A stretch of DNA of 64,000 nt from NCBI GenBank assembly GCA_964503955.1, contig CAZDCG010000001.1:173804-237803 (forward strand). The letters are read 5' to 3'. Below the pieces are notes generated by a model. The model ran no database searches. It was given only the letters and a program-made list of their open reading frames with translations, and was not told where the DNA came from. The first letter of the stretch is position 1. The number at the start of each line of letters is the position of its first letter. Shown piece by piece: positions 6,439 to 41,676 of the stretch. Source of the stretch: an uncultured Gammaproteobacteria bacterium (GTDB lineage Bacteria > Patescibacteriota > Patescibacteriia > VMEV01 > CAYQCH01). Position numbers and translations under genes: made by a program.

Positions 6439-6725
6439 AGGCAAAAACATTATCTATAGAGAGTATAGGCCAGATGACTGACCTCGTCGAGATAATGTTT
6501 TGCAAACGATCCCAGACGCGCAAGTCCCTCAAATGTATCAGATAGAACAAAAAAGATAAAAGATGCAAGGAGTAAGCTGATGCGCTGATTACTGATACGC
6601 TGAACGCTTGAGCTGAGTGCTTTCTTTCATGCCTCCAGCACACAGCATCAGCAACAGTGATCAGTGTTCAGTACTCAGCTTACCCTCAGACACACTGCCC
6701 ATAACCCGTCACCCGCAACCTCTTA

Positions 6726-8726
6726 CTACTGCCCTGTTCTTAGCGCATTGCCTCTCACAATGGCTCCCTGCCGTGGATCGGTTTGCCAAGGTGCGACATA
6801 TTCATCGCGCGGTCCATATGCCGTGTATACACGCACCGTTTTCAGATCAGGCGGTATTTCAAACGTTTCAGGTTCGTGATTTGCCAGATATTTATCCATG
6901 AATGAGCGCCAGACAGGAGCGGCCACCACCGCGCCCGCCCCCCCATATCGTAGCGGCGCATTATCATGATTCCCCGCCCAGACTCCGACCACGATGGACG
7001 GCGTATAGCCGATTGTCCAGGCATCACGATAGTCCTGGCTGGTTCCGGTTTTTGCCGCGACCTGTCGATCATAAAAGGATAAGGGGCTTCGCGCGCCAAA
7101 AACCGGAGTACGCGCCCGATTGTCGCTGAGAATGGATGTAATTTGATACGCCGTTTCCGGTTTAACGATTTCGCGAGGAAGCGCGGTTTTCCAATCGATC
7201 CTCCCCCCTTCAAGCGTTTGAATCGAAAGAATGCCTGTTGGAGAAATCTGGGTTCCCTGATTGGCGAATGTTCCGTACGCGCTGACAAGATCAAGCAGCT
7301 TGACCTCCGCGCCCCCAAGTACGATAGACGGACCAAAACGTTTGCGGTCTTCAAGCGTGGTAATGCCAAGATCCTCGGCAAAATCAATCGCCTCGTCCAC
7401 GCCAACCCGGATCACGGCTTCCACTGCGGGCACATTCAGCGATTGCGCGAGCGCGTCACGCAGGGTGATAGGACCTCGGAATTTCAAATCATAGTTTTGC
7501 GGGATATAAACCTGCCTGGGATCAAGACTGAAATTGCGCGGAGCATCCATGAGAATACTGGCCGGCGTCACTTTTTGTTTATCAAGCAGCGCGGCATACA
7601 CCAGCGGCTTAAACGAGCTTCCCGGCTGACGGTTGGCGGTTGTCATATTCACGTTTGCCGCTTCGCCTTCGAAATAATTTTTATTGCCAAGCATGGCAAG
7701 GATTTCTCCATTTCTTGGATCAAGCGCCACAAGACCTGTACTGTCCGCATTGTATCTGTTCAGCCGCTCATCCTGCTCTTGCACGGATTCCATTGCCAAA
7801 AGCTGGAGATGGTAATCAAGCGTTGTGGTCACGACAAGCCCGCCCTGCTCCACTCGTTGTTTTCCAAGCGCTTCCTCAAGCTGCTGGCGTATATGCATGA
7901 CAAAATGCGGGGCTTTAATCTCCATTTTCCCGCTGCCAAACTGGATTGCATCCGACAAAGCCGTAGAATAGGTTAACTCATCAATATATCCATGCGCATA
8001 CATCTTTGCGAGAATATAATCCCGCCGTTCAATAAGCGCGTCGACATGCCCGTTAAAAGGCGACAAATACGTCGGATGCTTTGGCAGTGCGGCCAACGTT
8101 GCCGCCTCGGCCACGGAAAGTTCGCTGGCATGCTTGTCAAAATACAAACGGCTTGCAGCCTCGGCTCCGTAGACATTTGATCCGTACGGAATGGTATTAA
8201 GATACAGATGCAGGATATCTTCCTTTGAAATCGCCAGATCAACGGCAACACTCATGAAAATTTCCTCAAGCTTGTCTCCATATCCTTGCGAAGGACCAAG
8301 GATTGTATTTTTAACAAGCTGCTGGACAAGCGTGGACCCTCCCTCGACCACTTCCTGCGCCTGCCAATTGCGCCAGAACGCGCGCAGGATTCCAAGCGGA
8401 TCAAAACCGGTATGTTTATAAAATCGTTCGTCTTCTGCCATCAAGGTAGCGTCGATCAAGGCCTGAGGAATTTGATCACGCTCAACGGGAATACGTCGTA
8501 TGTCTCCAAAAAATTCATAAAGCAGCACGCCATGACGGTCAAGGATTTGTGAAGAGCTTGGAAACTGCGTAATCAGCTCGACTTTGTCGGCATAGACCTC
8601 TTCAACGTAATAAAGACTGGCGCGCAGAGGCAGCAAAACGAAAAGCGTACCCAAAATCAGCCAGCGATAACATCTGCGATGTTGGCAAGTTCGCTTGATC
8701 TTCATAGAGGTCGGCCGGCTTGGCAA
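6726..8726 (-). CDS. class A penicillin-binding protein (PBP1A-type transglycosylase/transpeptidase)
   Basis: The N-terminus has a signal anchor. The glycosyltransferase 51 motif EDERFYKHTGFD and RQPGSSFKP (SxxK), SLN and KTGT transpeptidase motifs are present. The protein is 666 aa. Confidence 0.9.
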   Translation of the reverse strand: MPSRPTSMKIKRTCQHRRCYRWLILGTLFVLLPLRASLYYVEEVYADKVELITQFPSSSQILDRHGVLLYEFFGDIRRIPVERDQIPQALIDATLMAEDERFYKHTGFDPLGILRAFWRNWQAQEVVEGGSTLVQQLVKNTILGPSQGYGDKLEEIFMSVAVDLAISKEDILHLYLNTIPYGSNVYGAEAASRLYFDKHASELSVAEAATLAALPKHPTYLSPFNGHVDALIERRDYILAKMYAHGYIDELTYSTALSDAIQFGSGKMEIKAPHFVMHIRQQLEEALGKQRVEQGGLVVTTTLDYHLQLLAMESVQEQDERLNRYNADSTGLVALDPRNGEILAMLGNKNYFEGEAANVNMTTANRQPGSSFKPLVYAALLDKQKVTPASILMDAPRNFSLDPRQVYIPQNYDLKFRGPITLRDALAQSLNVPAVEAVIRVGVDEAIDFAEDLGITTLEDRKRFGPSIVLGGAEVKLLDLVSAYGTFANQGTQISPTGILSIQTLEGGRIDWKTALPREIVKPETAYQITSILSDNRARTPVFGARSPLSFYDRQVAAKTGTSQDYRDAWTIGYTPSIVVGVWAGNHDNAPLRYGGAGAVVAAPVWRSFMDKYLANHEPETFEIPPDLKTVRVYTAYGPRDEYVAPWQTDPRQGAIVRGNALRTGQ

Positions 8727-9124
8727 AGCCGGATGGAAGTTAGGTTCCCGCTTCGTCTAACTGTATTGAGACAATACAGGCAGACAACAGGAACGACGGT
8801 TCAATATGAAGAGTTCTGATTTCGAGAACGCTTCTCTCTTTCGGAGATGGATTGTCAAAAGACGGATCAGCTTAGTCGGTGGTCGAGATTGACACGAGAC
8901 GAGAAATGAATCGAGTTGAACTCCATCTATAACGTATCACTTCCATTGAAACGTTCAAGCTGTGTATAACTCCGTCATCAGTTTTGATGCATATGCATCT
9001 GTTCAAACATGAATCAAACGTTCCAGATAGACCACAACATTCCCGGACGAGTCCGCGGAATTTCAAATCTAACACGATCGTTAACGAGTTGTTCATGACT
9101 TGTAACCCGCTCACTCAAAACGAA

Positions 9125-9176
9125 GAAGACCCGCCGTCCGCAGCATCGATCGACACTGCTTCTGGCGGGTCTCTTC
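9125..9176 (-). terminator. imperfect hairpin just downstream of the high-GC island's 3' gene
   Basis: The arms are gaagacccgcc ... ggcgggtct(c)ttc. It lies immediately 3' of the stop at 9191. Confidence 0.35.
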
Positions 9177-9190
9177 AGAAGACGGGCAGC

Positions 9191-10636
9191 CTAGGCGGCC
9201 TGGCCCTTCTTCTTCTTACCGGACTTGGAGCTCTTCTCCTCGTCCTTGCTCTTCTTCCCCTTCTTCTTGCCACCCTTCTTGGCCGGCGACTCGGAGCTCT
9301 GCTTGAGACGAACCTCCTTGCGCTGCTCCTCGAGGAACTTGTCCCAGTTGAACGAAGGGAAGTCGTTCTTCATCTGGTTGAGCAGGCGGCTCACCTTGTC
9401 CGAGTCACCCAGCTGGAGGGCCGCCCGGAGGCGATCCTTGCTCTTCTCGACGCGCGGGTCGTTCTGGGGCTTCATGCCCTCCTTGACCGGCGCGGCCTTA
9501 TTGACGGGCTGGTTGTCCTTGCCCTTGGGCATGGACTTGGCGGTCGCCAGCTTCCGGATCGCACCGAAGACCTGCGTGGCCTTGGGGTGGGTCCAGACCG
9601 GCAGCGCGTTGCGGAGGCTGGGCTCCTTGCGGGCCAGCGACTCGATGCCGGCGTAGACCTGCTGCATGAGCTCGACACACTCGATGTTGCTCGCGAAGGC
9701 CTCCTCCAGGGTCCCCCGGATATTGGCCCACGACCCCACGATGTGTTCACCCACGATCTCGCAGGCATCGATCAGCTTCGCGCGCTGCCCCACCTTGCGG
9801 TTCGGGTCCATCTTGCGCCGCAGGTTGGCCAGCGTCGTGTCCACGCGCATGGCCAGGTGCTCGCTGTTCAGCGGCTCGCGGTCCTCGTTGGCCGCGTCCC
9901 AGCCCTTGCGGTAGTGCTCGCTCTGCCGGTCCACGGACACGGAGTCCGAGAACCGGACCTGAGCGCCGAGGCACTCGATCCAGCCGAGCAGCCAGAGCCC
10001 TCGCTTGTTGCCCACGAAGAGCCGCTCGAGACGACCGTTGAGCGAGGCGTCCTTGAGGCACCCCTCGCGGTTCCCCGAGCCGCTGACGATGTGCTTGATG
10101 ATCAGCACGCTGATCACCCAGGCCTTGCGCTTGCAGTTGAGGTTCTCGCTGTCGAACACCTTCTTGGCGTTGTCGAGCGTGGTGTTGAGGTACCACGCCC
10201 TCTTGGCCTTGAGGGTCTCCAGGGTCTCCTTGGCCCTGAGGTGGATGACGCGCGAGGTCTCGCACGCCTGCGCCTCCTTGTGGACCGGCCCGCGCTCGTC
10301 CCCGTTGTTGAGGGGCGAGCACATGATCATCTGGTAGTAGGTCACGAGCGCCTTGTCCACGGCATCCTCGGAGAGGAACTTGCCCTCCCCGTCCATAAGC
10401 GGACGGACGACCTCGACCCAGGCGTCGACCACCTTGCTGATCTCCTCCTTGAAGGTCACCGCCGGCTTGGGCGCCTCCTTCTTGTTCTCCTCGACCTCGA
10501 CGGTGGCCACCGGCTCGAGGGCGGGCGGCACGGCGAGGATCTCCTCGACCGGCTCGTTCTGCACGAGGTGATCGAGCGCCTTGTTGATGGCGCGGCCGAT
10601 GGCGCGCTCGAAGCGGCTGCGGATGAGACCGATCAT
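9191..10636 (-). CDS. hypothetical protein with a highly basic polylysine C-terminal tail, encoded in the high-GC island
   Basis: The 481-aa ORF begins MIGLIRSRFERAIG, and GGAGG lies 4 nt upstream of the ATG. GC3 is near 95%, with AAG/GAG/CTC/ATC codons throughout. The C-terminus is KKGGKKKGKKSKDEEKSSKSGKKKKGQAA. I recognise no family. Confidence 0.6.
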   Translation of the reverse strand: MIGLIRSRFERAIGRAINKALDHLVQNEPVEEILAVPPALEPVATVEVEENKKEAPKPAVTFKEEISKVVDAWVEVVRPLMDGEGKFLSEDAVDKALVTYYQMIMCSPLNNGDERGPVHKEAQACETSRVIHLRAKETLETLKAKRAWYLNTTLDNAKKVFDSENLNCKRKAWVISVLIIKHIVSGSGNREGCLKDASLNGRLERLFVGNKRGLWLLGWIECLGAQVRFSDSVSVDRQSEHYRKGWDAANEDREPLNSEHLAMRVDTTLANLRRKMDPNRKVGQRAKLIDACEIVGEHIVGSWANIRGTLEEAFASNIECVELMQQVYAGIESLARKEPSLRNALPVWTHPKATQVFGAIRKLATAKSMPKGKDNQPVNKAAPVKEGMKPQNDPRVEKSKDRLRAALQLGDSDKVSRLLNQMKNDFPSFNWDKFLEEQRKEVRLKQSSESPAKKGGKKKGKKSKDEEKSSKSGKKKKGQAA

Positions 10637-10848
10637 GAAACCTCCCCTGATGATGCCCGTTCGGGCGGTTGACGTGGGAACAAATCCCTTCTCTGTTTGG
10701 CAATGTATAAAAAGAATTTCTTCCCACGCCAACCTGATTTGTTTGTAAATGTGCGTTTTCCTCTCAGGTCACACCAGTCATGATGTAACCGATTGAGGAG
10801 AGGTGGCGCAGCTCATGGCCGCGCCACCCCCTCGTTGATCTTCCAGCC

Positions 10849-11412
10849 CTAGGCGCGCACCGCCTTGGACTGGTTGATCTTCTTGAGCATCTCGGCTGCC
10901 TTGGGGAGCCGTCCGTCGCGACTCTGGCGCTGAAGCGCGCGCCGGATCGCCTCCGCGCAGCCGCGGCAGATGATCCGCTCCTCGACCTGCGAGCGGCTGA
11001 AGCTCTCCCCCAGCTCATGGGCGTGGCGGACGAAGGCCTCGCTGAGCGAGACCTCGTTGCCGCACGGCCCGCTGTCGCGCCGCTTGCCGGTGCAGGCGTA
11101 GAGACGCTCACGCCTGCCCCCCGCGAGAACAGCGAAGGGCATGGCCTTGGTGAAGTCCTGCTCGGGCTTCTGCTCCTGAGCAGCGATGAGCTGCTTCTTG
11201 AGCACATCGAGCCCGTTGCGGCGCAGGGAGTAGGTGTCGAGGCTCTTCTTGCTCACCTCGACCGCCTCCTTCTGGACCAGAGCGAGCTTGCGTTCGGCGA
11301 CTCGGAGCAACCCGGACGCCTTCTTGAGGTCGCAAGACCTCAAGGCGCTCTCCACGCTCCTGAGCATCTGCTCATAGAGCCGCACGGAAGCCAAGAAATC
11401 ATCGAGATTCAT
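10849..11412 (-). CDS. hypothetical zinc-ribbon protein, first gene of the high-GC island
   Basis: The 187-aa ORF begins MNLDDFLASVRLYEQ, and GAGGG lies 6 nt upstream. Two CxxC-like pairs are present (YACTGKRRDSGPCGNE and ICRGCAEA). Codon bias matches the 9191-10636 gene. Confidence 0.55.
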   Translation of the reverse strand: MNLDDFLASVRLYEQMLRSVESALRSCDLKKASGLLRVAERKLALVQKEAVEVSKKSLDTYSLRRNGLDVLKKQLIAAQEQKPEQDFTKAMPFAVLAGGRRERLYACTGKRRDSGPCGNEVSLSEAFVRHAHELGESFSRSQVEERIICRGCAEAIRRALQRQSRDGRLPKAAEMLKKINQSKAVRA

Positions 11413-11597
11413 AATCGACCCTCCCAGGTCCTGGAACTTTTGGTAGTAAAAGAGCAACTCAATAAAATAGCAGAAATACCGAATTTTGTCAAGAACTCAA
11501 ACAAAAAAGCCACATTTTCAGGGACTTTTTCGTCTTTGAGATTTTTCCCATCTAGCTAATCGAGCAAGACTTGCTAACCTCACAACAACTCTCTTCC

Positions 11598-14500
11598 TCA
11601 GACAAGCTCATTCTCCCCCCATTTCAGATAGAGCATCGGAACAACCGCCAAGGTAAGAACGGTCGCAAAGGTCAGACCAAAAATCATGGACGCGCCAAGT
11701 CCGCGCCAGATCGGGTCGGAAATAGCCAGCGGCGCAATACCCGCTACGGTCGTAACCGTCGTTAAGAGAACCGGCTGCAGGCGTGATCTGCCGGCATGAA
11801 CAATGGCTTCGAATTTCTCCATCCCCTCTTTACGGTTTCGATTGATTTTATCAATGAGAATAATCGCGTCATTTACCACGACTCCGGATAAAGCGACAAT
11901 TCCAATAAAGGCCGGGAAACTCAGTGCCTGCCCCGTCAGCAAGAGACCGAAGAAGACACCGATAAGCGCCATCGGCAGACTCAGCAAGATGAAGAACGGC
12001 TGGCGATACGAGTTGAACTGCAGCAGCAAAATCGCGGCAATCAGGAAAATACCGATCAGCAATGCTCTGAAGAGGTCGCGGAATGATTCTGCCACGTCTT
12101 CAGCTTCGCCGCCCATCTTTATGGTATAACCGGGCATGAGATCAAGCTCAGACTGTCGCTTGGCAAATTGCGCGAATACTTCGCCGGCGGTTGTGCCGCT
12201 TACCTGCGCGCTGGCTTTTGCCACGCGTTCTCCGTCTTCATGCGGGATGGAACTTCTTGCAGGCGCGAGCTGCACGTCAACGAAGGACGCGAGTTTCACC
12301 GCCTGCCCGCCGATTGCCACCTCCATCTGCTCAAGCTCATTGATGGTCGTGGAAATGCGTTCGTCAACATCGGCGGCCGAAGGGTTCAATGCCTGGGTAA
12401 CAATCACGTCCAGGTCATCGCCTTCGAAGCGGAACTCAGCCGCTTCGGTTCCTGTCACAGCCGTACGCAATACCTGTCCGATCTGGGCAGGCGTCAGACC
12501 GTATGAGAGCGCCTGATCGCGGTTGACAGTCAGCACGAATTCAAATGAAGCGTCGCGCAGAGATGTAGACACTTCAGCCGTTCCAGGAATTTCTTGCAGC
12601 ATCGTTTCCGATTGCAGAGCAAGACGCTCAAGCTCGGCCAGATCAGGTCCCGCAAAGGTGATGGAAACCGGCGCGCCGGACGGAGGACCGGATGCCAGCT
12701 GGGTAACGGAAATATCCGCCCCGCTGATGAAAGACAAGCGGTCGCGGTATTCGTTTACGATTTCAGGCGTTGCCTGCTCGCGATCTTCTTTGAGGTTGAC
12801 CGTAAAACTTGCAAGATGCGTGCCGCTTCCTCCCCCGTCTTCTGAAAACGCATTGCCAGCCCCAACATTGACATAGAACGATTCAATGCGTTCATCCGTG
12901 TAAAGCTCCTCTTCAACCTGGCGGACAATACGATCGGTAGCCGTAAGCGAAGTGCCAAGCGGAGTTTCGATGTCGACATAGAAGAAGTCGGCATCCGCTT
13001 CAGGAAACATAATCACCTTGAGCATGCCGGTCATGGGAAGCGCAAGCGCAAGGATAAAGCCGATCACGACTGAACGGCCGAAACGTTTGCGGCGCTTTGG
13101 ATCTGAAAGCAGCGTTCTCAGTTTGGATTCATACCAGACATGCAGCCGCTCCATAGCCGGATCCATGTAGTGCTTCTTCAGAAGCTCCGCCCTGCTCACC
13201 TTCCCATGCTTGAGAAAGCGTGTGGCAAGCAAAGGCATAATCCCCAGAGCCGTAAATAATGATCCGAATAGCACGAGGTTAACGGTAATCGGAATATGTT
13301 TGACAAATTCCCCCATGATGCCGCTCATAAAGAGCATAGGCACAAAGGCGGCTACGGTCGTTAATGTCCCTGAAATCAACGGCATTTCAAATTCATTGAG
13401 CGTGCGCTTAGCCGCTTCCATGGGAGTCATGCCAAGCTTGAGATTTTCATGCATCCCTTCGGTAATAACAATACCGTTATCCACCACGATGCCAAGCGCC
13501 AGAATCAGGGAAAACAGCGAAAGGAAATTAATGCTTGAACCGAAATACTCAAGGCCGATAAATCCGATCAGAAAAGTAAATGGAACACTCAAGCCGGCAA
13601 GCAGCCCTTCTTTCAACCCAAGAAACAGGAAGAGCAATGCGCCGATCAGCACAATGGTTGAAAGCCCGTTGCTTGTCAGATCGCTCAGCGATTTTTGTAC
13701 TTCCTCAGCCGCGTCAAAGGTGATAATGGAAGAAGCTTCCGGGTAGGAATTGGTTTTCAGATCTTCAATAACCTGCTTGGCCTGATCCGCGATTTTGGTA
13801 ATGTCTCCACCGGTTTTCTTTTTCACGGCAAGCGAGATCGCATTGCTTGATGGTTCGCCGTTTACGCTCACGCGCGAAAATGTGCTTGAAGGAGACAAAC
13901 CAAGCGAAACGTCCGCCACATCGCGGAGGTAAACCGTGGCGCCATTCAGCTGCTTGATCGGAATCTGCGCGAACTCATCAGGCTGCTTTATTTCCGCATC
14001 CAGACGCACGGTATAACGGATATCGTCCGATCGGATCGCGCCGATCGGAAAGGTCAAATGCGTTGAACGCAGGGCGGACACAAGCTCATTGAGCGAGACT
14101 TGATACTGGTCAAGCCTGCTTTTATCCACGTTAATAAGCACTTCCTGCCCGCGCACGCCGGCAATGGTTACTTCTGAAACATTGGGAATCGCTTCAAGCG
14201 CGTCCTGCGCTTCTTCAGACATTTTCTTCAATGCGAATTCAGAGAGATCCGCGGAAAGCGCGAAAACGATAATCGGCTGGTCTGAAAAACTGACTTCCTG
14301 CACAATGGGATCTTGGGCATCCGCGGGCAAGCGGCTTTCCGCGGTGGCAACCACGTCGCGCAAGGCGCGGATCCGGTCATCAATGTCTGCTTTGGCGTTA
14401 AAGGTCACGACTATCGACGAGATTCCTTCGCTTGATGTGGACGTAAATGTGTCCATTTCCTCAAGACCATCGATCGCGTCTTCAAGCTCATCGGTCACAA

Positions 14501-14687
14501 GGCGCTCCACGTCCAATGCGCTCGCTCCCGGGTAAACCGTCGTAACCACGCCAATCGGAATTTTCACTTCCGGATTCGCTTCGCGCGGCAGCGTGAACAT
14601 GGCAAAGAATCCAGCCAAAGTGATCGCAGCAATAATCAAATACGTGAAACGGAATCGTTCCAGAAGAAAATGCCAAACACGAATCAT
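11598..14687 (-). CDS. RND efflux transporter permease subunit (AcrB/HAE1 family)
   Basis: The product is about 1030 aa with 12 transmembrane helices and large periplasmic loops. It begins MIRVWHFLLERFRFTYLIIAAITLAGFF... and has duplicated halves typical of AcrB. Confidence 0.9.
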   Translation of the reverse strand: MIRVWHFLLERFRFTYLIIAAITLAGFFAMFTLPREANPEVKIPIGVVTTVYPGASALDVERLVTDELEDAIDGLEEMDTFTSTSSEGISSIVVTFNAKADIDDRIRALRDVVATAESRLPADAQDPIVQEVSFSDQPIIVFALSADLSEFALKKMSEEAQDALEAIPNVSEVTIAGVRGQEVLINVDKSRLDQYQVSLNELVSALRSTHLTFPIGAIRSDDIRYTVRLDAEIKQPDEFAQIPIKQLNGATVYLRDVADVSLGLSPSSTFSRVSVNGEPSSNAISLAVKKKTGGDITKIADQAKQVIEDLKTNSYPEASSIITFDAAEEVQKSLSDLTSNGLSTIVLIGALLFLFLGLKEGLLAGLSVPFTFLIGFIGLEYFGSSINFLSLFSLILALGIVVDNGIVITEGMHENLKLGMTPMEAAKRTLNEFEMPLISGTLTTVAAFVPMLFMSGIMGEFVKHIPITVNLVLFGSLFTALGIMPLLATRFLKHGKVSRAELLKKHYMDPAMERLHVWYESKLRTLLSDPKRRKRFGRSVVIGFILALALPMTGMLKVIMFPEADADFFYVDIETPLGTSLTATDRIVRQVEEELYTDERIESFYVNVGAGNAFSEDGGGSGTHLASFTVNLKEDREQATPEIVNEYRDRLSFISGADISVTQLASGPPSGAPVSITFAGPDLAELERLALQSETMLQEIPGTAEVSTSLRDASFEFVLTVNRDQALSYGLTPAQIGQVLRTAVTGTEAAEFRFEGDDLDVIVTQALNPSAADVDERISTTINELEQMEVAIGGQAVKLASFVDVQLAPARSSIPHEDGERVAKASAQVSGTTAGEVFAQFAKRQSELDLMPGYTIKMGGEAEDVAESFRDLFRALLIGIFLIAAILLLQFNSYRQPFFILLSLPMALIGVFFGLLLTGQALSFPAFIGIVALSGVVVNDAIILIDKINRNRKEGMEKFEAIVHAGRSRLQPVLLTTVTTVAGIAPLAISDPIWRGLGASMIFGLTFATVLTLAVVPMLYLKWGENELV

Positions 14688-14691
14688 ACGG

Positions 14692-16512
14692 TTATCTGAT
14701 CTCAACGGCCTGGCCGCCGCGCAAACCGCGCGCATCCTTAACAATAAGCGTTTCCTGCTCAAACGGAGTCATGACTTCAACGTAATTTCCGCTCACTTCT
14801 CCCACCTGTACTTCCTGTTCCACCAGCACGCCTTCCACAATGCGGTAGACCAGCGCGTTTTCCTCGCGCAGCTTGACCGCGGAAAGAGGAAGCAATGTGA
14901 CGCCACCTTCGGCGGCCTTCTTTGAGAGTTCAACAGAAACGGACTGCCCCAACGTCAACGGAGTTTCCTGTGACGCGATAGCGACCATGACTTTGATTTT
15001 CTTTGTCGTTGGTTCAAGTGCGGGGGAAATTTCAGAAACCGTGCCTTCAATCGCTTCGTCGATCAATGCCTTCCCGCCAACTTCAATGAATAAGCGTTCA
15101 CGTTCAGTCACAAAGGTTTCGACTTCCATCCCGCCCTGATTTGCCAGGGAAACTACGATGGTCGTACCGCCGACCACATCACCGATCTTTGCGTCCAAAA
15201 ACATGACGCGGCCGGCAATCGGAGCGCGCACAATGGCCTTATCGCGGTTTGCCGCAGCAAGCGCCAGCGAAGCGCGCGCCTGAGCGACAGATGCTTCCTG
15301 CAATCGGACATCTTCCGGACGCGCGCCGTTTTTCGCGATCAGCAGCTGCTGCTCCGCCTGGCGGACACGCGCTTCCTGAATGGCAATTTGTTCAGGCGTA
15401 GGTCCATTTTTGACAATCTGAAGCTGCTCTTTGGATTTCGCCAAAGCGGTTTGCGCCGATTCAAGCGCCTTTTCATTAGAAAGCTTTACGGACGCAATTG
15501 ACTGCTTTTGCGCGATCAACGCGTCCGTACTCGATTTCACGGTCGTGCGAGCGGCATGCACCGTGGCAATTGCCGTCGTAATATCTGAACTTGAAAAACT
15601 TGGAGTTGCGACAGCATCCTGCAAGGCAAGCAGAGTCGTGTCCAGGAATCGAAGGAAGTCATTGGTTATGGACAAAGCTTCATCAATAGCGCGCAGAGTC
15701 TCGTCTTCCGTGCCTGTTTGCGGCGCGGCCTGTCTCCACGCCGCTAATGCGGAACCGATGGTGCGGCGGGCCGCATTCACCTGATTTTCAAGAATGACGT
15801 CAGCCATGGCCGGCTTGAACGTGTCCTGATTGGCATCGTCAAAAATACTCAGCAAATTCTGTTCAAGCAGGCTATCAAGCGAAAATTGCGTGCTGAGAAT
15901 CAGCTGACCGGTATTTTCAAACTGATTAGAAAGATTGATCTGGTTCTGCTGAATGGTCTGGTCGAAGGTTGCCTGCGCGTTTTGCACGGTCAATTCCGCC
16001 TGAGCAAGATCTTCAGGGCGGGCACCCTTCTGCAGTTCAAGCAGCTGCTGTTTGGCCGATTCAAGATTCTGCTCCGCGATAATCACGTCTTCAGGGCGAG
16101 AACCGTTTTTCATTTTGGCAAGCGCGGCCAAAGCGCTCTGCACACCGGCGGAAGCCTGCGCCACAGCAGCGTCCAGATCACGGTGATTAAGCTCAACCAG
16201 AATCTGGCCGGGCTGAACGAGCTGGTTTAATGATACGCGCACGGCCGCAACCTGCCCTCCGATCTGAGGACGTAAATCAATCTGATCGTTTGCCTGGACC
16301 GTCCCGGTTACAGGAATCGTCCCTCCGTCGCTTGAAAGATCGGTGATCGCAAGCGCCTCAACGCGTTTGGCGGATGTTTGAGCACTGGTTTCTGTCTCGC
16401 CTTTGCGAGCCATTGCTGAACCCACAAACAAGAGAAGGATGACTGCCACAAGAAGCGCGATGATTCGTTTCTTTGAAAGCTTTGAGCGGATCTTTTCAAC
16501 GATGCTATTCAT
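14692..16512 (-). CDS. RND efflux periplasmic adaptor (membrane fusion protein)
   Basis: The 606-aa ORF has an N-terminal transmembrane anchor, very long coiled-coil hairpins and a C-terminal beta-barrel/MP domain (RAPIAGRVMFLDAKIGDVV...). It sits immediately upstream of the RND pump. Confidence 0.85.
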   Translation of the reverse strand: MNSIVEKIRSKLSKKRIIALLVAVILLLFVGSAMARKGETETSAQTSAKRVEALAITDLSSDGGTIPVTGTVQANDQIDLRPQIGGQVAAVRVSLNQLVQPGQILVELNHRDLDAAVAQASAGVQSALAALAKMKNGSRPEDVIIAEQNLESAKQQLLELQKGARPEDLAQAELTVQNAQATFDQTIQQNQINLSNQFENTGQLILSTQFSLDSLLEQNLLSIFDDANQDTFKPAMADVILENQVNAARRTIGSALAAWRQAAPQTGTEDETLRAIDEALSITNDFLRFLDTTLLALQDAVATPSFSSSDITTAIATVHAARTTVKSSTDALIAQKQSIASVKLSNEKALESAQTALAKSKEQLQIVKNGPTPEQIAIQEARVRQAEQQLLIAKNGARPEDVRLQEASVAQARASLALAAANRDKAIVRAPIAGRVMFLDAKIGDVVGGTTIVVSLANQGGMEVETFVTERERLFIEVGGKALIDEAIEGTVSEISPALEPTTKKIKVMVAIASQETPLTLGQSVSVELSKKAAEGGVTLLPLSAVKLREENALVYRIVEGVLVEQEVQVGEVSGNYVEVMTPFEQETLIVKDARGLRGGQAVEIR

Positions 16513-40297: not shown

Positions 40298-40570
40298 TTA
40301 AGAAACAGTTATCCTCAACTTCACGTTAAGGGCATCTGCCACCTTGTAAAGAAATTCTAAAGAGGGATTATACGATCCTGACTCAAACCGAGAAATAGCA
40401 GATTGTTTGGTGCCAATTTTTTTTGCTAAATCCGATTGAGAAATATTTTTCTCTAACCTTTTTTCTATCAACTCTTGAATAATCAAATACTCAGGTTCAA
40501 GCGCTTTGTAGCTCTTATTGACCTGCTTGTCTTTAAGCAATTCAGATTTTAGGGATTTATAGCTTTTCAT
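40298..40570 (-). CDS. HTH XRE-family antitoxin (HigA-like)
   Basis: The 90-aa ORF has a helix-turn-helix (ISQSDLAKKIGTKQSAISRFESG). It lies directly downstream of the RelE/ParE-like toxin. Confidence 0.75.
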   Translation of the reverse strand: MKSYKSLKSELLKDKQVNKSYKALEPEYLIIQELIEKRLEKNISQSDLAKKIGTKQSAISRFESGSYNPSLEFLYKVADALNVKLRITVS

Positions 40571-40593
40571 ATGGAATGAATATAACGTATATG

Positions 40594-40911
40594 TTATATA
40601 CTGTCAAGCGATGCTTTTCTTTCTTGTGCCAGCTTTAAGTGCTTTGCAGGTATCTTCTGACTCTTTTTCATAAAGCCATGCAAGATAATGGCTATTTTGC
40701 CAGATTGAAAAGTATAGATAAAGCGAACTTCTTGAACACCTCTAATTCGCAACTCATGCAATCCTTTTCCAATACTCTTTGAATGAGGCATTTTTAGATC
40801 TTCCCCAAATTGCTCAAGTAAATCAAAGGTACGCAAAACCTTGGCAATAGTTTGTTTCTCCAAACTCTTGATAAATTTTTCTATGTCTTCGTCATACAAC
40901 TTTATTTGCAT
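40594..40911 (-). CDS. type II toxin, RelE/ParE superfamily (HigB-like)
   Basis: It begins MQIKLYDEDIEKFIKSLEKQTIAKVLRTFDLLEQFGEDL and has KGLHELRI...IAIILHGFMKKSQKIP. The toxin-first order is typical of HigBA. Confidence 0.7.
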   Translation of the reverse strand: MQIKLYDEDIEKFIKSLEKQTIAKVLRTFDLLEQFGEDLKMPHSKSIGKGLHELRIRGVQEVRFIYTFQSGKIAIILHGFMKKSQKIPAKHLKLAQERKASLDSI

Positions 40912-40989
40912 AAAAAAACACGCCATTTCTTTTTAAAGAAGGGGCGTGGGCTGACATGTTGATTATAGCAGAAAAATATCAATCAAAAA

Positions 40990-41012
40990 ACTGGTCAAAG
41001 GACCAGCTTTTT
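40990..41012 (-). terminator. Rho-independent terminator after tRNA-Asn
   Basis: ctggtc aaag gaccag, with T-runs on both strands. Confidence 0.6.
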
Positions 41013-41015
41013 GAT

Positions 41016-41090
41016 TGGCTCCGAGGGTGGGACTCGAACCCACGACCAATTGGTTAACAGCCAACTGCTCTACCACTGAGCTACCTCGGA
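41016..41090 (-). tRNA. tRNA-Asn (anticodon GTT), CCA encoded
   Basis: The reverse complement folds as a cloverleaf (TCCGAGGTAGCTCAGTGGTAGAGCAGTTGGCTGTTAACCAATTGGTCGTGGGTTCGAGTCCCACCCTCGGAGCCA). The acceptor stem has 7 bp, the D stem is GCTC/GAGC and the anticodon loop is CTGTTAA. The T arm is GTGGG-TTCGAGT-CCCAC. Confidence 0.85.
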
Positions 41091-41326
41091 ATATTCTCGT
41101 CTAACCATTTTCTGCCTTGGCCAGACTTCAAGAAACGCTCTCTCTTTTCTGCTTCCCACCTGGTTTGAAAACCTTCACTGTGCATCAAGTTGAATGGGCC
41201 ATTCTGCCTCGTCCATTTATTTGATCCTGAATGATGATCTTTCAAGCGCTCAAGAGCGGTTTTTGAAGTATAACCAACGTAGCGTTTGTTATTTTTCAGA
41301 CTTCTCAGCACATAAACAAAAAACAT
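41081..41326 (-). CDS. GIY-YIG nuclease family protein (81 aa)
   Basis: MFFVYVLRSLKNNKRYVGYTSKTALERLKDHHSG.... The last codons and the TAG stop (IPR*) are positions 2-10 of the downstream tRNA-Asn. Confidence 0.8.
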   Translation of the reverse strand: MFFVYVLRSLKNNKRYVGYTSKTALERLKDHHSGSNKWTRQNGPFNLMHSEGFQTRWEAEKRERFLKSGQGRKWLDENIPR

Positions 41327-41361
41327 AAATTTATGGGCAGAGATTAATATTGTAAGGAGCT

Positions 41362-41431
41362 TGGTGAACAGCCCCAGCCATAGGCTGGTCCGCCTCTGGC
41401 GGAAACTGCTCTACCACTGAGCTACCTCGGA
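41362..41431 (-). pseudogene. degenerate partial tRNA-Asn copy (positions 1-28, a roughly 30-nt GC-hairpin insertion, then a mutated anticodon arm GGCTGTTCACCAAGC)
   Basis: 29 nt are identical to the tRNA 5' end. After the insert, 12 of 15 nt match tRNA positions 29-43. Confidence 0.55.
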
Positions 41432-41676
41432 ATATATATTCTTCTTTTTAAGAACGCTCTCCCAAACCCAGTTTTAAAGTATTTCTCACGAGCCTGGGAA
41501 TCTCTCTTCGACAAACAAGCCTCGTAGTAAATTAACTTCACGGGCCTACGGTAATTTGTCGAGGAAACATTTCCACTCTCGTGTTCACTTATCCTTCTTT
41601 GCAAGTCAGATGCACTACCGATGTAAAACTTATCATCCGAGCAAAGAAGTACATATGTGTAATGAAACCCTTCCAT
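41422..41676 (-). CDS. GIY-YIG nuclease family protein (84 aa)
   Basis: MEGFHYTYVLLCSDDKFYIGSASDLQRRISEHESG.... Its ATG directly abuts tRNA-like GAGCAGTTT, and its C-terminal IPR* plus TAG is supplied by the next pseudo-tRNA copy. Confidence 0.8.
   Translation of the reverse strand: MEGFHYTYVLLCSDDKFYIGSASDLQRRISEHESGNVSSTNYRRPVKLIYYEACLSKRDSQAREKYFKTGFGRAFLKRRIYIPR

What the first reader, a model, noticed from the sequence alone, without database searches (positions are those of the whole stretch)
9120..11460. 2.3-kb high-GC island (about 63% GC, GC3 about 95%) encoding two unrecognisable proteins, one with a polylysine tail
GC rises abruptly from about 50% to about 63%, with extreme third-position GC and exclusive use of AAG, GAG, CTC and ATC codons. 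Alternate-frame and antisense shadow ORFs (8984-10672+, 9747-10727-) are typical of such DNA. The island holds a 187-aa protein with two CxxC pairs (own promoter-like TTGGCG-17-TATACA, GAGGG RBS) and a 481-aa protein ending KKGGKKKGKKSKDEEKSSKSGKKKKGQAA. A GC hairpin separates the two genes, an upstream promoter-like element precedes the second, and a terminator hairpin follows it. Neither protein matches any family I can recognise. The composition points to recent horizontal acquisition from a high-GC donor, or a phage- or eukaryote-like source; the histone H1-like Lys tail suggests nucleic-acid binding. It is a candidate novel two-gene module.
Basis: seen in the sequence. Interest (0 to 1): 0.75.

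Follow-up and report, generated by a model that had tools for sequence, protein, structure and literature searches.

The report
Codon-skewed orphan operon in Patescibacteria
A real two-gene operon for basic proteins with no known relatives, spelled almost entirely in G/C-ending codons, occupies a chromosomal slot that holds similarly spelled but different genes in two related, much AT-richer bacteria, so it is not a simple recent import from a GC-rich donor.

Summary
Two minus-strand genes, A (10849-11412, 187 aa, GC3 0.89) and B (9191-10636, 481 aa, GC3 0.95), lie in a genome whose other genes have GC3 0.43-0.64. Six independent Logan assemblies reproduce the locus, so it is not a misassembly. 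Neither protein has a detectable relative in Pfam, PHROGs, NCBIfam, PADLOC, PDB, 5.8 billion protein clusters, or (for B) a full HMMER pass over 1.84 billion representatives. The "recent transfer from a high-GC donor" reading is not supported. The host is a Patescibacteria (CPR) bacterium. Two relatives (PBP 64-65% identical, genome GC 40%, GC3 about 0.25) carry their own 60-64% GC islands in the same RND-to-PBP slot. All six island genes share one codon dialect: AAG 159/160, third-position A 0.4-9%, and a TAG stop every time. All six encode basic proteins. Each operon has a consensus-like promoter and a heavily structured spacer. GC1, GC2 and the non-coding parts are not GC-rich. One zinc-binding module and the promoter are shared between genomes. 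My best reading is a clade-specific hypervariable slot whose cargo is held in a G/C-ending dialect by selection on synonymous sites. The function, probably nucleic-acid binding, is inferred only. Public annotation calls B on the wrong strand.

The parts
11464..11492 (-). Promoter-like site of the operon: TTGACA, 17 nt, TG-n-TATTTT (perfect -35, extended -10)
   Evidence: Consensus scan, 10 of 12 matches with TG. Unique in the window. Homologous to the promoter upstream of gene 1 in L012: local alignment score 34 against shuffles 16.3 +/- 2.1, 0 of 500. L011 has the same TTGACA-17-TGcTATAGT design.
11419..11425 (-). Ribosome-binding site GGGAGGG of gene A, within CCTGGGAGGG
   Evidence: Read from the sequence. 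The same 10-mer, CCTGGGAGGG, precedes the ATG of L012 gene 1.
10849..11412 (-). Gene A, 187 aa, pI 9.9. N-terminal helical hairpin or bundle (residues 1-80), then a Cys4 zinc-type module. TAG stop.
   Evidence: GC1/2/3 = 0.64/0.43/0.89. AF2 gives confident helices only for residues 1-80. No family, PDB or large-database match.
10957..11094 (-). Zinc-type module of A: C107-x9-C117 ... QV-x5-C149-x2-C152
   Evidence: Similar to two copies in L012 gene 2. Smith-Waterman score 59 against shuffles 31.6 +/- 5.1, 0 of 300, Gumbel p about 6e-4. Alignment A2 has invariant G, C, Q, V, C, C, P. No PDB or Pfam match.
10858..11010 (-). Strain-variable C-terminal third of A (residues 135-185)
   Evidence: The variant in SRR11843836 (L008) differs in 12 codons here (8 non-synonymous) and in none of codons 1-134. 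The adjacent RND gene has 2 synonymous changes in 391 codons.
10637..10848 (-). Structured A-B spacer: 13-bp GC hairpin (10800-10830), a second hairpin, and a 25-bp imperfect hairpin (10667-10734) ending 20 nt before B's RBS.
   Evidence: MFE -93.6 kcal/mol against shuffles -60.6 +/- 4.1, z = -8.0. Inverted repeat I1. No Rfam family. Spacers in L012 and L011 are also strongly structured, z = -7.9 and -5.3.
10641..10647 (-). Ribosome-binding site GGGGAGG of gene B
   Evidence: Read from the sequence, 4 nt before the ATG at 10636.
9191..10636 (-). Gene B, 481 aa, pI 9.5, all-helical. Basic disordered linker (about 366-393), confident three-helix unit (394-446), Lys-rich tail (447-481). TAG stop.
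   Evidence: GC1/2/3 = 0.61/0.39/0.95 and third-position A 0.4%. AF2 mean pLDDT 44.9, with only residues 390-446 above 79. Only itself found in 5.8e9 clusters and in a full phmmer pass over 1.84e9 representatives.
9194..9298 (-). Polybasic tail of B: SSESPAKKGGKKKGKKSKDEEKSSKSGKKKKGQAA
   Evidence: Translation. The most basic 25-mer has net charge +11.
9120..9172 (-). Intrinsic-terminator-like hairpin after B (AGACCCGCC...GGCGGGTCT followed by TCTTCGTTTTG)
   Evidence: Inverted repeat I2. Fold z = -4.2.
8984..10672 (+). Antisense shadow ORF. It is not a gene, but the NCBI and Logan annotations call its 525-aa version.
   Evidence: GC1/2/3 = 0.89/0.40/0.60. 92% of its residues come from 10 amino acids, with Leu at 22%. 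It stays open because sense TTA, CTA and TCA are absent. Annotation look-ups.

Best explanation
The island is one transcription unit, made up of a strong promoter, gene A, a multi-hairpin spacer, gene B and a terminator. It sits in a clade-specific variable slot between the RND efflux operon and the class-A PBP gene of a Patescibacteria (CPR) lineage. It is not a one-off recent import.

Three genomes of this sub-clade fill the slot with different, mostly non-alignable cargo that obeys the same rules:
- two small or medium basic proteins with polybasic segments, in some cases a Cys4 zinc-type module;
- a consensus-like TTGACA-17-TGnTATNNT promoter;
- a highly structured intergenic RNA;
- coding sequence written almost only in C- or G-ending codons, with A at the third position most strongly excluded and TAG as the stop.

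The bias is confined to synonymous positions. It coexists with AT-rich promoters and UTRs, and it appears in hosts whose own GC3 ranges from 0.25 to 0.53. I therefore infer that the dialect is maintained by selection acting on the mRNA or on its decoding. The candidates are very stable mRNA folding, or decoding without wobble-uridine tRNAs. Donor mutational bias that has not yet decayed does not fit.

The cargo itself turns over or diverges very fast, probably through recombination in the conserved flanks.

The proteins most likely act by binding nucleic acid (polybasic tails, zinc module, pI 9.0-11.5).

Shown: the anatomy, the synteny, the shared dialect, the shared promoter and zinc module, and the absence of homologues.
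Inferred: selection on synonymous sites, the mode of turnover, and nucleic-acid binding.
For: (1) The locus is real and reproducible: six independent assemblies at 99-100% identity.

(2) The host is Patescibacteria. The PBP's named relatives at 43-49% identity are Parcubacteria-type CPR, and the best GTDB hit is a Moraniibacteriota MAG.

(3) Synteny. L011 and L012 show SpoU-MarR-MFP-RND-[island]-53 aa-PBP-ATP-cone. Genome GC is 0.40 and host GC3 0.19-0.31. Their islands are 60-64% GC, with gene-1 GC3 of 0.90-0.92.

(4) The outgroup (L015-L017, PBP 55-61% identical to the window) has an HhH-GPD glycosylase, with or without a C39 peptidase, in the slot and no high-GC island.

(5) One dialect in six of six genes:
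- AAG 159/160, ATC 60/61, no TTA or CTA.
- Third-position A is 0.4-9.2% against 20-36% in host genes.
- TAG stop 6/6 against 19/79 in host genes, p about 2e-4.

(6) GC1 0.59-0.68 and GC2 0.36-0.44 are host-like, and the proteins are Lys-rich. The promoter plus UTR is 37-39% GC and the spacers 50-52% in all three islands.

(7) The promoter and RBS context are homologous between the window and L012. The zinc module is shared between A and L012 gene 2.

(8) Island CDS fold more stably than versions with shuffled synonymous codons. z is -2.3 to -5.05 in six of six genes, against a mean of -1.0 (sd 1.5) in the 12 host genes. Mann-Whitney p = 0.003 against 14 host genes, including the two PBP controls.

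(9) A3 is avoided about five times more strongly than T3. NNR codons are 354 G to 10 A; NNY codons are 191 C to 33 T. CGA, the one A-ending codon read by an I34 tRNA, is 9-10% of CGN, against 2.4-2.7% A-ending in the other four-fold boxes (p 4e-4).

(10) B shows 1 synonymous difference between strains where 7.3 are expected from the neighbouring PBP (Poisson p 0.006).

(11) All six proteins have pI 9.0-11.5 and a polybasic 25-mer of net charge +6 to +13.
Against: - Only three island-bearing genomes were seen with DNA. A fourth (P0010) has the same gene layout but no sequence was available.
- Apart from the zinc module, the island proteins of different genomes are not detectably homologous. L011 and L012 islands do not align although their flanks do, non-coding parts included. 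That fits replacement from an external pool as well as it fits in-situ evolution.
- The shortage of synonymous polymorphism in B could instead reflect recent exchange of the island between strains.
- The folding excess overlaps the host range: three host genes have z of -2.5 to -3.6.
- TAG stops are not explained by tRNA choice.
- There are no expression, proteomic, tRNA-inventory or biochemical data.
- The structure models are too poor (pLDDT 45 and 53) to support any fold assignment.
Confidence: 0.5

Rival explanations
1. Cassette turnover from an unsampled GC3-rich mobile gene pool, such as a phage, plasmid or satellite that circulates in this CPR clade. The slot would be an integration or recombination hotspot, each genome would have picked up a different cassette recently, and the codon dialect would be that of the element and not selected in situ.
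For: - Island cargo differs almost completely between L011, L012 and the window, while the flanks align, non-coding DNA included.
- Each variable segment is exactly one promoter-to-terminator unit.
- There is a recombination-like tract of 12 changed codons in A between strains.
- B has low synonymous divergence relative to the PBP, which fits recent spread.
- No homologues anywhere is typical of mobile-element ORFans.
- The non-coding GC values are the same in the three islands, regardless of host GC.
Against: - No integrase, transposase, tRNA or border repeats.
- Nothing in IMG/VR, INPHARED phages, PLSDB plasmids, PHROGs or PADLOC.
- Elements normally track or fall below host GC, whereas here GC3 is 0.9 in hosts with GC3 0.25.
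- GC1 and GC2 are host-like, so the pool itself would still need a synonymous-site explanation.
- The window and L012 share the promoter although the cargo behind it differs.
Confidence: 0.3
2. One reading: a single recent horizontal acquisition by this genome from a high-GC bacterium, a eukaryote or a virus, not yet ameliorated.
For: - There is a sharp composition jump, with GC3 0.89-0.95 against 0.43-0.64.
- The genes are ORFans.
- A more distant sub-clade lacks the island.
Against: - Islands with the same dialect occupy the same slot in L011 and L012, whose PBP and RND proteins are only 61-65% identical to the window's.
- The promoter and RBS are homologous with L012.
- GC1 and GC2 are host-like, and Lys at 8-11% is unlike high-GC bacterial proteomes (the comparison rests on general knowledge).
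- All stops are TAG, whereas high-GC bacteria mostly use TGA (general knowledge).
- The promoter and UTR are AT-rich.
- No donor homologue exists in about 15 billion proteins.
Confidence: 0.05
3. GC-biased gene conversion at a recombination hotspot raised the GC of whatever sits in the slot.
For: - The locus is variable and shows a recombination-like tract.
- MutS and MutL are encoded nearby in the relatives.
Against: - Conversion bias should act on non-coding DNA too, yet the promoter and UTR are 37-39% GC and lie immediately next to CDS with GC3 above 0.9.
- It does not predict A3 far below T3, the CGA exception, or folding beyond composition.
- The size of the effect is far beyond what has been reported for bacteria (general knowledge).
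Confidence: 0.05
4. The plus-strand ORF (8984-10672) is the real or a second gene, making this an ambigrammatic locus. The avoidance of A at sense third positions would exist to keep it open.
For: - The antisense frame is open across all of B.
- Gene callers, including the one behind the NCBI record, chose it.
Against: - Its GC1/2/3 is 0.89/0.40/0.60.
- 92% of its residues come from 10 amino acids, with 22% Leu and no Trp or Tyr.
- Keeping it open needs only TTA, CTA and TCA to be avoided, yet all A-ending and most T-ending codons are avoided. This is the 'pseudoambigrammatic' situation described for an extreme-GC3 RNA virus (bioRxiv 10.1101/2025.03.14.643323).
- The RBS, promoter and terminator serve the minus strand.
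Confidence: 0.03
5. The region is a large structured non-coding RNA and is not protein-coding. GC-rich stretches in AT-rich genomes are often structured RNAs.
For: - Very stable folding of the spacers and CDS.
- GC-rich in 40% GC genomes.
Against: - Strong three-base periodicity (GC3 0.95 against GC2 0.39).
- Uninterrupted ORFs with an RBS and normal amino-acid composition.
- No Rfam match even at E up to 1.
Confidence: 0.02

Closest known systems
Variable-gene hotspots between conserved core genes (genomic islets, defence or accessory-gene hotspots, O-antigen or capsule-type loci with persistently atypical GC)
   Same: - The flanks are conserved (RND operon and PBP) while the cargo differs between relatives.
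- The composition is atypical in every lineage.
- There are signs of recombination.
- The cargo has no recognisable families.
   Different: - The cargo is only two small cytoplasmic basic proteins, with no enzymes.
- The composition is higher, not lower, than the host's, and the excess is confined to synonymous sites.
- There are no mobility genes and no PADLOC match.
Classical horizontally acquired genomic island from a high-GC donor
   Same: An abrupt GC shift and ORFan content.
   Different: - Present in the same slot in relatives of different genomic GC.
- GC1 and GC2 are host-like, and the internal non-coding DNA is AT-rich.
- No tRNA, integrase or repeats, and no donor.
Pseudoambigrammatic, extreme-GC3 coding sequences (SalaUV-NL1 and similar RNA viruses; bioRxiv 10.1101/2025.03.14.643323)
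   Same: GC3 of about 95-98% far above the host's, an accidental full-length antisense ORF, and an unexplained selective cause.
   Different: Those are RNA virus genomes of eukaryotes. This is a chromosomal DNA operon in a CPR bacterium with bacterial promoter, RBS and terminator signals.
Codon-biased, tRNA-tuned stress regulons (for example the mycobacterial DosR regulon and wobble-U modification, PMC5114619)
   Same: A gene set written in a distinctive synonymous-codon choice that maps onto particular tRNA classes. Here every codon that needs a U34 tRNA is avoided and the I34-read CGA is tolerated.
   Different: - The bias is far more extreme.
- It involves ORFans at one locus and not a regulon.
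- No tRNA or modification data exist, and TAG stops are not explained by it.
- This is a resemblance in logic only; nothing was tested.
Lys-rich-tailed nucleoid or nucleic-acid-binding proteins (histone H1, chlamydial Hc1, actinobacterial HU/Hlp and TopA tails)
   Same: A C-terminal low-complexity Lys tail with net charge +11 over 25 residues, and a basic protein overall.
   Different: - No sequence or profile similarity to any such family.
- The tail is of the KKGGKKKGKKSK type, unlike the PAKK/AAKK repeats of the actinobacterial proteins (that comparison is from general knowledge).
- The globular part is an unassigned helical domain.

Membership tests
Recently acquired genomic island (high-GC donor) | Composition atypical for the host | tested here: met
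   GC 0.62-0.65 and GC3 0.89-0.95, against host GC3 0.43-0.64.
Recently acquired genomic island (high-GC donor) | Absent from the same site in related genomes | tested here: not met
   L011 and L012 carry islands in the same dialect in the same RND-PBP slot. Only the more distant L015-L017 lack one.
Recently acquired genomic island (high-GC donor) | Mobility signatures at the borders (integrase or transposase, tRNA, direct repeats) | tested here: not met
   No such genes. The only tRNA is 30 kb away. No flanking repeats beyond chance-size matches.
Recently acquired genomic island (high-GC donor) | Homologues in a plausible donor | tested here: not met
   Only self-matches in 5.8e9 clusters for A and B, and in 1.84e9 representatives for B. 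None in metagenome contigs (B), viral contigs, phages or plasmids.
Recently acquired genomic island (high-GC donor) | Donor-type composition at non-synonymous and non-coding positions as well | tested here: not met
   GC1 0.61-0.64, GC2 0.39-0.43, Lys 8-11%. Promoter and UTR 0.39, spacer 0.52.
Zinc ribbon / treble-clef Cys4 module | Two Cys pairs (knuckles) conserved among homologues | tested here: met
   C-x9-C ... C-x2-C in A. The second and the last two Cys align across A and both copies in L012 gene 2; the first aligns in two of the three copies.
Zinc ribbon / treble-clef Cys4 module | Match to a described family or solved fold | tested here: not met
   No Pfam, NCBIfam or PDB profile match. 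The AF2 model of this part has pLDDT below 50.
Zinc ribbon / treble-clef Cys4 module | Metal binding | not testable with these tools
   Needs purified protein.
Histone H1 / Hc1-like nucleoid proteins | Sequence or profile membership | tested here: not met
   No Pfam or NCBIfam hit at E up to 0.1.
Histone H1 / Hc1-like nucleoid proteins | Lys-rich low-complexity tail | tested here: met
   Residues 447-481 of B, net +11 over 25 residues.
Histone H1 / Hc1-like nucleoid proteins | DNA binding or compaction | not testable with these tools
   Needs an experiment.
Known anti-phage defence or toxin-antitoxin systems | Profile match to a PADLOC model or a Pfam toxin/antitoxin family | tested here: not met
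   The best hit is JetB at E 0.011 and 13 bits over 75 residues, treated as chance. Nothing else.
Prophage or viral remnant | Match to phage protein families or viral contigs | tested here: not met
   PHROGs E at least 0.05. No IMG/VR loci. No INPHARED tblastn hit.
Ambigrammatic (functional antisense ORF) locus | Selective avoidance of only the three codons (TTA, CTA, TCA) that give antisense stops, and a plausible antisense protein | tested here: not met
   All A-ending codons are avoided. The antisense product is 92% ten amino acids.
Structured non-coding RNA | Rfam match, or no coding periodicity | tested here: not met
   No Rfam family. GC3 0.95 against GC2 0.39.
Codon-biased, tRNA-tuned gene set | Codon choice partitioned by tRNA class | tested here: inconclusive
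   NNR 354 G to 10 A. NNY 191 C to 33 T. CGA 9-10% against 2.4-2.7% for other A-ending codons. The TAG stops, and the equally good fit of an RNA-structure explanation, leave it open.
Codon-biased, tRNA-tuned gene set | Matching tRNA gene or modification repertoire and condition-dependent translation | not testable with these tools
   Only one tRNA gene lies in the window and none in the related loci.

The most novel reading that the evidence does not exclude
The slot holds a previously undescribed kind of operon whose defining property is its spelling. The genes are kept, by selection over long evolutionary time and across hosts of 40-50% GC, in a codon set that needs no wobble-uridine tRNA, and their mRNAs fold exceptionally tightly. 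This would let these basic nucleic-acid-binding proteins be made when the ordinary A/U-ending decoding capacity of the cell is disabled or scarce. Examples are attack by anticodon nucleases, loss of wobble-U modification, or starvation. The tight folding could alternatively protect the message from A/U-directed RNases. The protein sequences themselves would be free to diversify.
Probability: 0.15. Interest if true: 0.85.

Novelty: new variant of a known kind. Interest (0 to 1): 0.55.

Why it matters
- Atypical GC is routinely read as 'recent foreign DNA'. Here the same extreme synonymous-site bias recurs in one syntenic slot of genomes whose own GC3 differs two-fold, with AT-rich regulatory DNA in between. 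That points to a force acting on synonymous sites of particular genes, which bacterial genomics rarely considers at this magnitude.
- If that is right, the locus is a natural test case for selection on mRNA folding or on tRNA-class usage. It is also a handle on unknown biology of CPR bacteria, in the form of abundant, fast-changing basic proteins.
- On the practical side, standard gene callers and the public record annotate the wrong strand for B and for L012 gene 2. Such genes, and any relatives, are therefore partly invisible to protein-database searches.

Tried and rejected
**Homology searches**
- Pfam, PHROGs, NCBIfam, PADLOC and PDB searches for A and B gave only sub-threshold noise: PCM1_C, JetB, CsrA, bL9.
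- The search for homologous proteins for A and B returned only self-matches. The full phmmer pass of B(1-446) over 1.84e9 representatives also returned only itself.
- tblastn against phages and plasmids found nothing.
- The search for related loci in viral contigs (A, B, L011 g1, L012 g2) and metagenome contigs (B, PBP) found nothing.

**Structure**
- AF2 single-sequence models were too poor to use (pLDDT 44.9 and 53.2).

**RNA and sequence comparison**
- Rfam at gathering threshold and at E up to 1 gave nothing usable.
- tblastx between islands gave many scattered hits. They lie in shifted or antisense frames and reflect composition, so I rejected them.
- MAFFT of the upstream regions failed to put the promoters in register. 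Local alignment with shuffles replaced it.

**Provenance and context**
- I tried to learn the environment from the SRA run numbers. The only paper with neighbouring accessions is an unrelated Cryptosporidium study.
- The GTDB scan gave only a distant, non-syntenic Moraniibacteriota locus and a Bradyrhizobium PBP.
- The 53-aa membrane gene of L011 and L012 could not be found in the window.
- The dif/IMEX idea was dropped because cumulative GC skew is monotonic across the window.

Full report
**1. The observation**

The 1-kb GC profile jumps to 0.624 and 0.627 at 9001-11000, against 0.44-0.55 in most other windows (0.37 in one). In 100-nt steps the borders sit near 9100 and 11400, with a dip to 0.41 at 10701-10800.

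The coding strand is the minus strand.
- Gene A is 10849-11412, 187 aa, with GC1/2/3 = 0.64/0.43/0.89.
- Gene B is 9191-10636, 481 aa, with GC1/2/3 = 0.61/0.39/0.95.
- Fifty other ORFs of at least 120 aa in the window have GC3 0.43-0.64, so these two genes are far outside the host range.

Codon counts for A+B are AAG 68/68, GAG 57/59, ATC 25/25 and CAG 26/26. CTC is 42 against CTG 17. Both stops are TAG.

Two details need correcting. A carries C107-x9-C117 and C149-x2-C152, so it does not have two CxxC pairs. TTGGCG-17-TATACA lies upstream of B. A's own promoter is a much better TTGACA-17-TATTTT with an extended -10 TG, at 11492-11464.

**2. Not an assembly artefact**

The exact proteins occur on Logan contigs from six independent runs (SRR11843827, -830, -816, -817, -834 and SRR19086438) and in an NCBI record. 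The contigs match the window at 99.4-100% identity. L003 and L010 (the same SRR11843816 contig fetched in both orientations) span both composition borders, and L001 and L002 cross both transitions. Read coverage could not be examined.

**3. Which strand codes**

The plus-strand ORF 8984-10672 has GC1/2/3 = 0.89/0.40/0.60. 92% of its residues come from ten amino acids, with Leu at 22%. It is open only because the sense strand has no TTA, CTA or TCA.

The promoter, the RBSs (GGGAGGG for A, GGGGAGG for B) and the terminator all serve the minus strand.

Even so, the gene caller used for two Logan contigs, and the NCBI record, annotate a 525-aa antisense protein (P0004) instead of B. The same mistake was made for gene 2 of L012. 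An accidental antisense ORF caused by extreme GC3 has been described for an RNA virus and called 'pseudoambigrammatic' (bioRxiv 10.1101/2025.03.14.643323).

**4. Anatomy of the unit**

In order along the minus strand:
- Promoter at 11492-11464 and RBS at 11425-11419.
- Gene A.
- A 212-nt spacer that folds into three stable hairpins. MFE is -93.6 kcal/mol against -60.6 +/- 4.1 for shuffles, z = -8.0. The last hairpin is a 25-bp imperfect stem at 10734-10667, ending 20 nt before B's RBS.
- Gene B.
- A terminator-like hairpin at 9172-9120 with a T-rich tail, z = -4.2.

No Rfam family matches any of this.

AF2 without an alignment gives an all-helical B with mean pLDDT 44.9; only residues 390-446, a three-helix unit, are confident. 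A has a confident helical N-terminus (residues 1-80) and an unresolved Cys-rich C-terminus. Fold searches gave only generic helical bundles and I disregard them.

**5. No relatives**

- Pfam, PHROGs, NCBIfam, PADLOC and PDB sequence searches gave nothing above noise.
- Word-indexed HMMER against 5.8 billion clusters found only the proteins themselves.
- A full phmmer pass of B(1-446) over 1.84 billion representatives found only B.
- tblastn against phage and plasmid records, and pattern scans of viral contigs (A, B) and metagenome contigs (B only), found nothing.
- One caveat applies. Callers can pick the wrong strand for such genes, so protein databases under-represent them.

**6. The host and the decisive comparison**

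The flanking genes are an RND/AcrB pump (11598-14762) and a class-A PBP (6726-8726). PBP relatives at 43-49% identity carry Patescibacteria/Parcubacteria names. The best GTDB hit is a Moraniibacteriota MAG.

A closer set (53-67% identity) allowed context look-ups.
- L011 (SRR14610177) and L012/L013 (ERR3484135/114) have the same gene order: SpoU-MarR-MFP-RND-[x]-53 aa-PBP-ATP-cone.
- Their genomes are 40% GC, with host GC3 of 0.19-0.31.
- Slot [x] nevertheless holds a 60-64% GC island with two ORFan genes.
- The L011 genes are 7653-8465 (270 aa, GC3 0.92) and 8761-9384 (207 aa, GC3 0.68).
- The L012 genes are 8173-8673 (166 aa; GC3 0.90 computed on the caller's longer 8125-8673 ORF) and 8881-9393 (170 aa; GC3 0.80 computed on the 8833-9393 ORF).
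- A fourth genome (P0010, no DNA available) has the L011-like layout.
- More distant relatives L015-L017 (PBP 55-61% identical to the window, GC about 50%) have an HhH-GPD glycosylase, with or without a C39 peptidase, in the slot and no high-GC island. Neither gene is found in the window, L011 or L012.

The PBP and RND identity matrices group the window with L011, L012 and L014, against L015-L017.

Across about 180 kb of fetched clade sequence, genes with GC3 of at least 0.75 and A3 below 6% occur only in this slot, apart from short shadow ORFs.

**7. One dialect, three genomes**

All six island genes share the following features.
- AAG 159/160, ATC 60/61, CTC at or above CTG, and no TTA or CTA.
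- Third-position A of 0.4-4.3% (9.2% in L011 gene 2), against 20% in the window host and 35-36% in the L011 and L012 hosts.
- A TAG stop in six of six genes, against 19 of 79 host ORFs (p about 2e-4).

GC1 (0.59-0.68) and GC2 (0.36-0.44) are host-like, and the proteins are Lys-rich. From general knowledge of how GC1 and GC2 scale with GC3 across bacteria, a donor with GC3 of 0.95 would be expected to show clearly higher GC1 and GC2 and an Arg-over-Lys proteome.

Inside the islands the promoter plus UTR is 37-39% GC and the spacers are 50-52%, in all three genomes.

A3 is avoided about five times more strongly than T3.
- Two-fold NNR codons are 354 G to 10 A.
- Two-fold NNY codons are 191 C to 33 T.
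- Four-fold boxes other than CGN have 2.4% A and 11.5% T.
- CGA is 9-10% of CGN (Fisher p 4e-4).

**8. What is shared and what is not**

Shared:
- The A promoter aligns with the L012 gene-1 promoter: TTGACAAAATTCGGTATTTCTGC-TATTTT against TTGACAAATTACCGTATTTATGC-TATATT. The score is 34 against 16.3 +/- 2.1 for shuffles, 0 of 500.
- Both have CCTGGGAGGG before the ATG.
- L011 has the same TTGACA-17-TGcTATAGT design but no extended similarity.
- The Cys module of A is significantly similar to L012 gene 2, which has two copies. The score is 59 against 31.6 +/- 5.1, p about 6e-4.
- All three gene1-gene2 spacers are multi-hairpin RNAs, with z of -8.0, -7.9 and -5.3.
- All six proteins are basic, with pI 9.0-11.5 and a polybasic segment at the N-terminus, the C-terminus or internally.

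Not shared:
- No other pair of island proteins is similar beyond chance.
- The islands do not align at the DNA level.
- The DNA just downstream does align between L011 and L012, non-coding parts included, with a score of 163 against 21.7. This covers the 53-aa gene and the PBP leader.

The variable unit is therefore exactly the promoter-to-terminator cassette.

**9. Strain-level variation**

- L008 (SRR11843836) differs from the window in 12 codons of A. All lie in residues 135-185, 8 are non-synonymous, and one codon has three changed bases. The adjoining RND segment has 2 synonymous changes in 391 codons. This looks like a recombination tract from a diverged allele.
- L009 (SRR11843834) differs in 4 codons of B. 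All lie in the disordered linker (residues 379-390): 1 synonymous and 3 non-synonymous. The PBP has 10 synonymous and 3 non-synonymous changes.
- Island against flanks is 5 to 11 versus 12 to 3 (synonymous to non-synonymous), Fisher p = 0.011.
- B shows 1 synonymous change where 7.3 are expected at the PBP's rate (Poisson p 0.006).
- Either the synonymous sites of B are constrained or the island moved between strains recently. The numbers are small.

**10. mRNA folding**

In 150-nt windows the island CDS fold at -55 to -66 kcal/mol, against -31 to -46 for host genes. They are also more stable than versions in which synonymous codons are permuted within the gene.
- z is -2.7, -5.05, -2.3, -2.4, -2.6 and -4.6 for the six island genes.
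- The 12 host genes have mean z of -1.0 (sd 1.5, range -3.6 to +1.5).
- Mann-Whitney p = 0.003 against 14 host genes, including the two PBP controls.

This is suggestive, because the ranges overlap.

**11. Interpretation**

The simple 'recent import from a high-GC donor' does not fit sections 6-8. Two readings remain.

Reading (a), which I prefer (about 0.5), is a resident, clade-specific slot whose cargo is kept in a G/C-ending, A-avoiding spelling by selection at synonymous sites. It fits these results:
- The confinement of the bias to synonymous positions.
- The AT-rich regulatory DNA next to GC3 above 0.9.
- The persistence across hosts with GC3 from 0.25 to 0.53.
- The shared promoter.
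- The excess folding.
- The shortage of synonymous polymorphism.

Two mechanisms could supply that selection.
- Very stable mRNA structure. U is tolerated more than A because of G-U pairing.
- Decoding without wobble-uridine tRNAs. NNY codons share one G34 tRNA, NNR codons do not, and CGA is read by I34. The logic resembles codon-biased stress regulons (PMC5114619, seen only as the title and abstract start).
- TAG stops fit the first mechanism better than the second.

Reading (b), at about 0.3, is repeated replacement by cassettes from an unsampled GC3-rich mobile pool through the conserved flanks. It explains the lack of protein homology and the recombination tract. It has no support from mobility genes or viral and plasmid databases, and it only moves the codon puzzle into the pool.

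Biased gene conversion, a functional antisense gene and a non-coding RNA are each disfavoured by specific tests (see the rival explanations).

The function of the proteins is inferred only. Polybasic tails, a Cys4 module and high pI point to nucleic-acid binding. The consensus-like promoter and strong RBS suggest high expression.

**12. Verdict**

The feature is real. It is a genuine ORFan operon, and it is more interesting for its spelling and its recurrence in a syntenic slot than as 'foreign DNA'. The kind is known: a variable islet between conserved genes. The persistent, extreme synonymous-site regime is a new variant of that kind. I score interest at 0.55, limited by three sampled genomes, the absence of expression data and the unknown function.

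Noticed in passing
window 8984-10672 (+); L012 8689-9372 (-): The public annotations (NCBI record with the 454,799-bp contig, and Logan gene calls) annotate the antisense shadow ORF (525 aa, P0004/P0005) instead of gene B. They make the same error for gene 2 of L012. Protein databases therefore hold the wrong product for these loci.
   Followed up: yes
window about 8735-8860 (-); L011 about 9850-9965; L012 about 9840-9945: The 5' leader and promoter region of the PBP gene is conserved at the DNA level in three genomes whose PBPs are only about 65% identical (GAAAGA..AAGCGTTCT ... GCTAAGCGGGAACCTAA). It could be a cis-regulatory leader. No Rfam family matches it.
   Followed up: partly
window 40298-41676 (-): A low-GC patch (37%) holds an XRE-type HTH gene (90 aa) and a Gp49/HigB-like gene (110 aa) beside tRNA-Asn (41016-41090). 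Two small GIY-YIG-like ORFs follow (41081-41326, 41422-41676). By eye it looks like a toxin-antitoxin pair at a tRNA-linked insertion spot. I ran no profile search on these ORFs.
   Followed up: no
window 8727-9119: The 53-aa single-pass membrane gene that lies between the island and the PBP in L011 and L012 (52-67 aa versions exist in L015-L017) has no detectable counterpart in the window. The 393-nt interval seems to be non-coding.
   Followed up: partly
L015 8141-9505; L016 8730-9626; L017 8296-9616: In the island-less sub-clade the slot holds an HhH-GPD DNA glycosylase, with or without a small C39-peptidase-domain protein. Neither gene is found in the window, L011, L012 or L014 sequence available.
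   Followed up: partly
L014 (GCA_964352335.1, CAYGRO010000003.1) position 1-300: This MAG contig (35.5% GC over the fetched 12.3-kb stretch; PBP 80% identical to L012's) ends 300 nt upstream of the PBP, exactly where an island would begin. The composition shift may break assemblies or binning, which would hide such islands.
   Followed up: no
L011 1331-1810 (+): A 159-aa ORFan with GC 0.52 and GC3 0.54 sits between the SpoU methylase and MarR genes of a 40% GC genome. It is a second, milder composition outlier near the same operon.
   Followed up: no
window 6583-6597: A 15-nt insertion/deletion difference between strains (window against L009) lies in the spacer between the PBP and ATP-cone genes.
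   Followed up: no
L011 and L012, all host ORFs of at least 120 aa: None of 27 host ORFs ends in TGA (17 TAA, 10 TAG), whereas the window host uses TGA in 7 of 52. TGA may be rare or have a special status in the AT-rich relatives.
   Followed up: no
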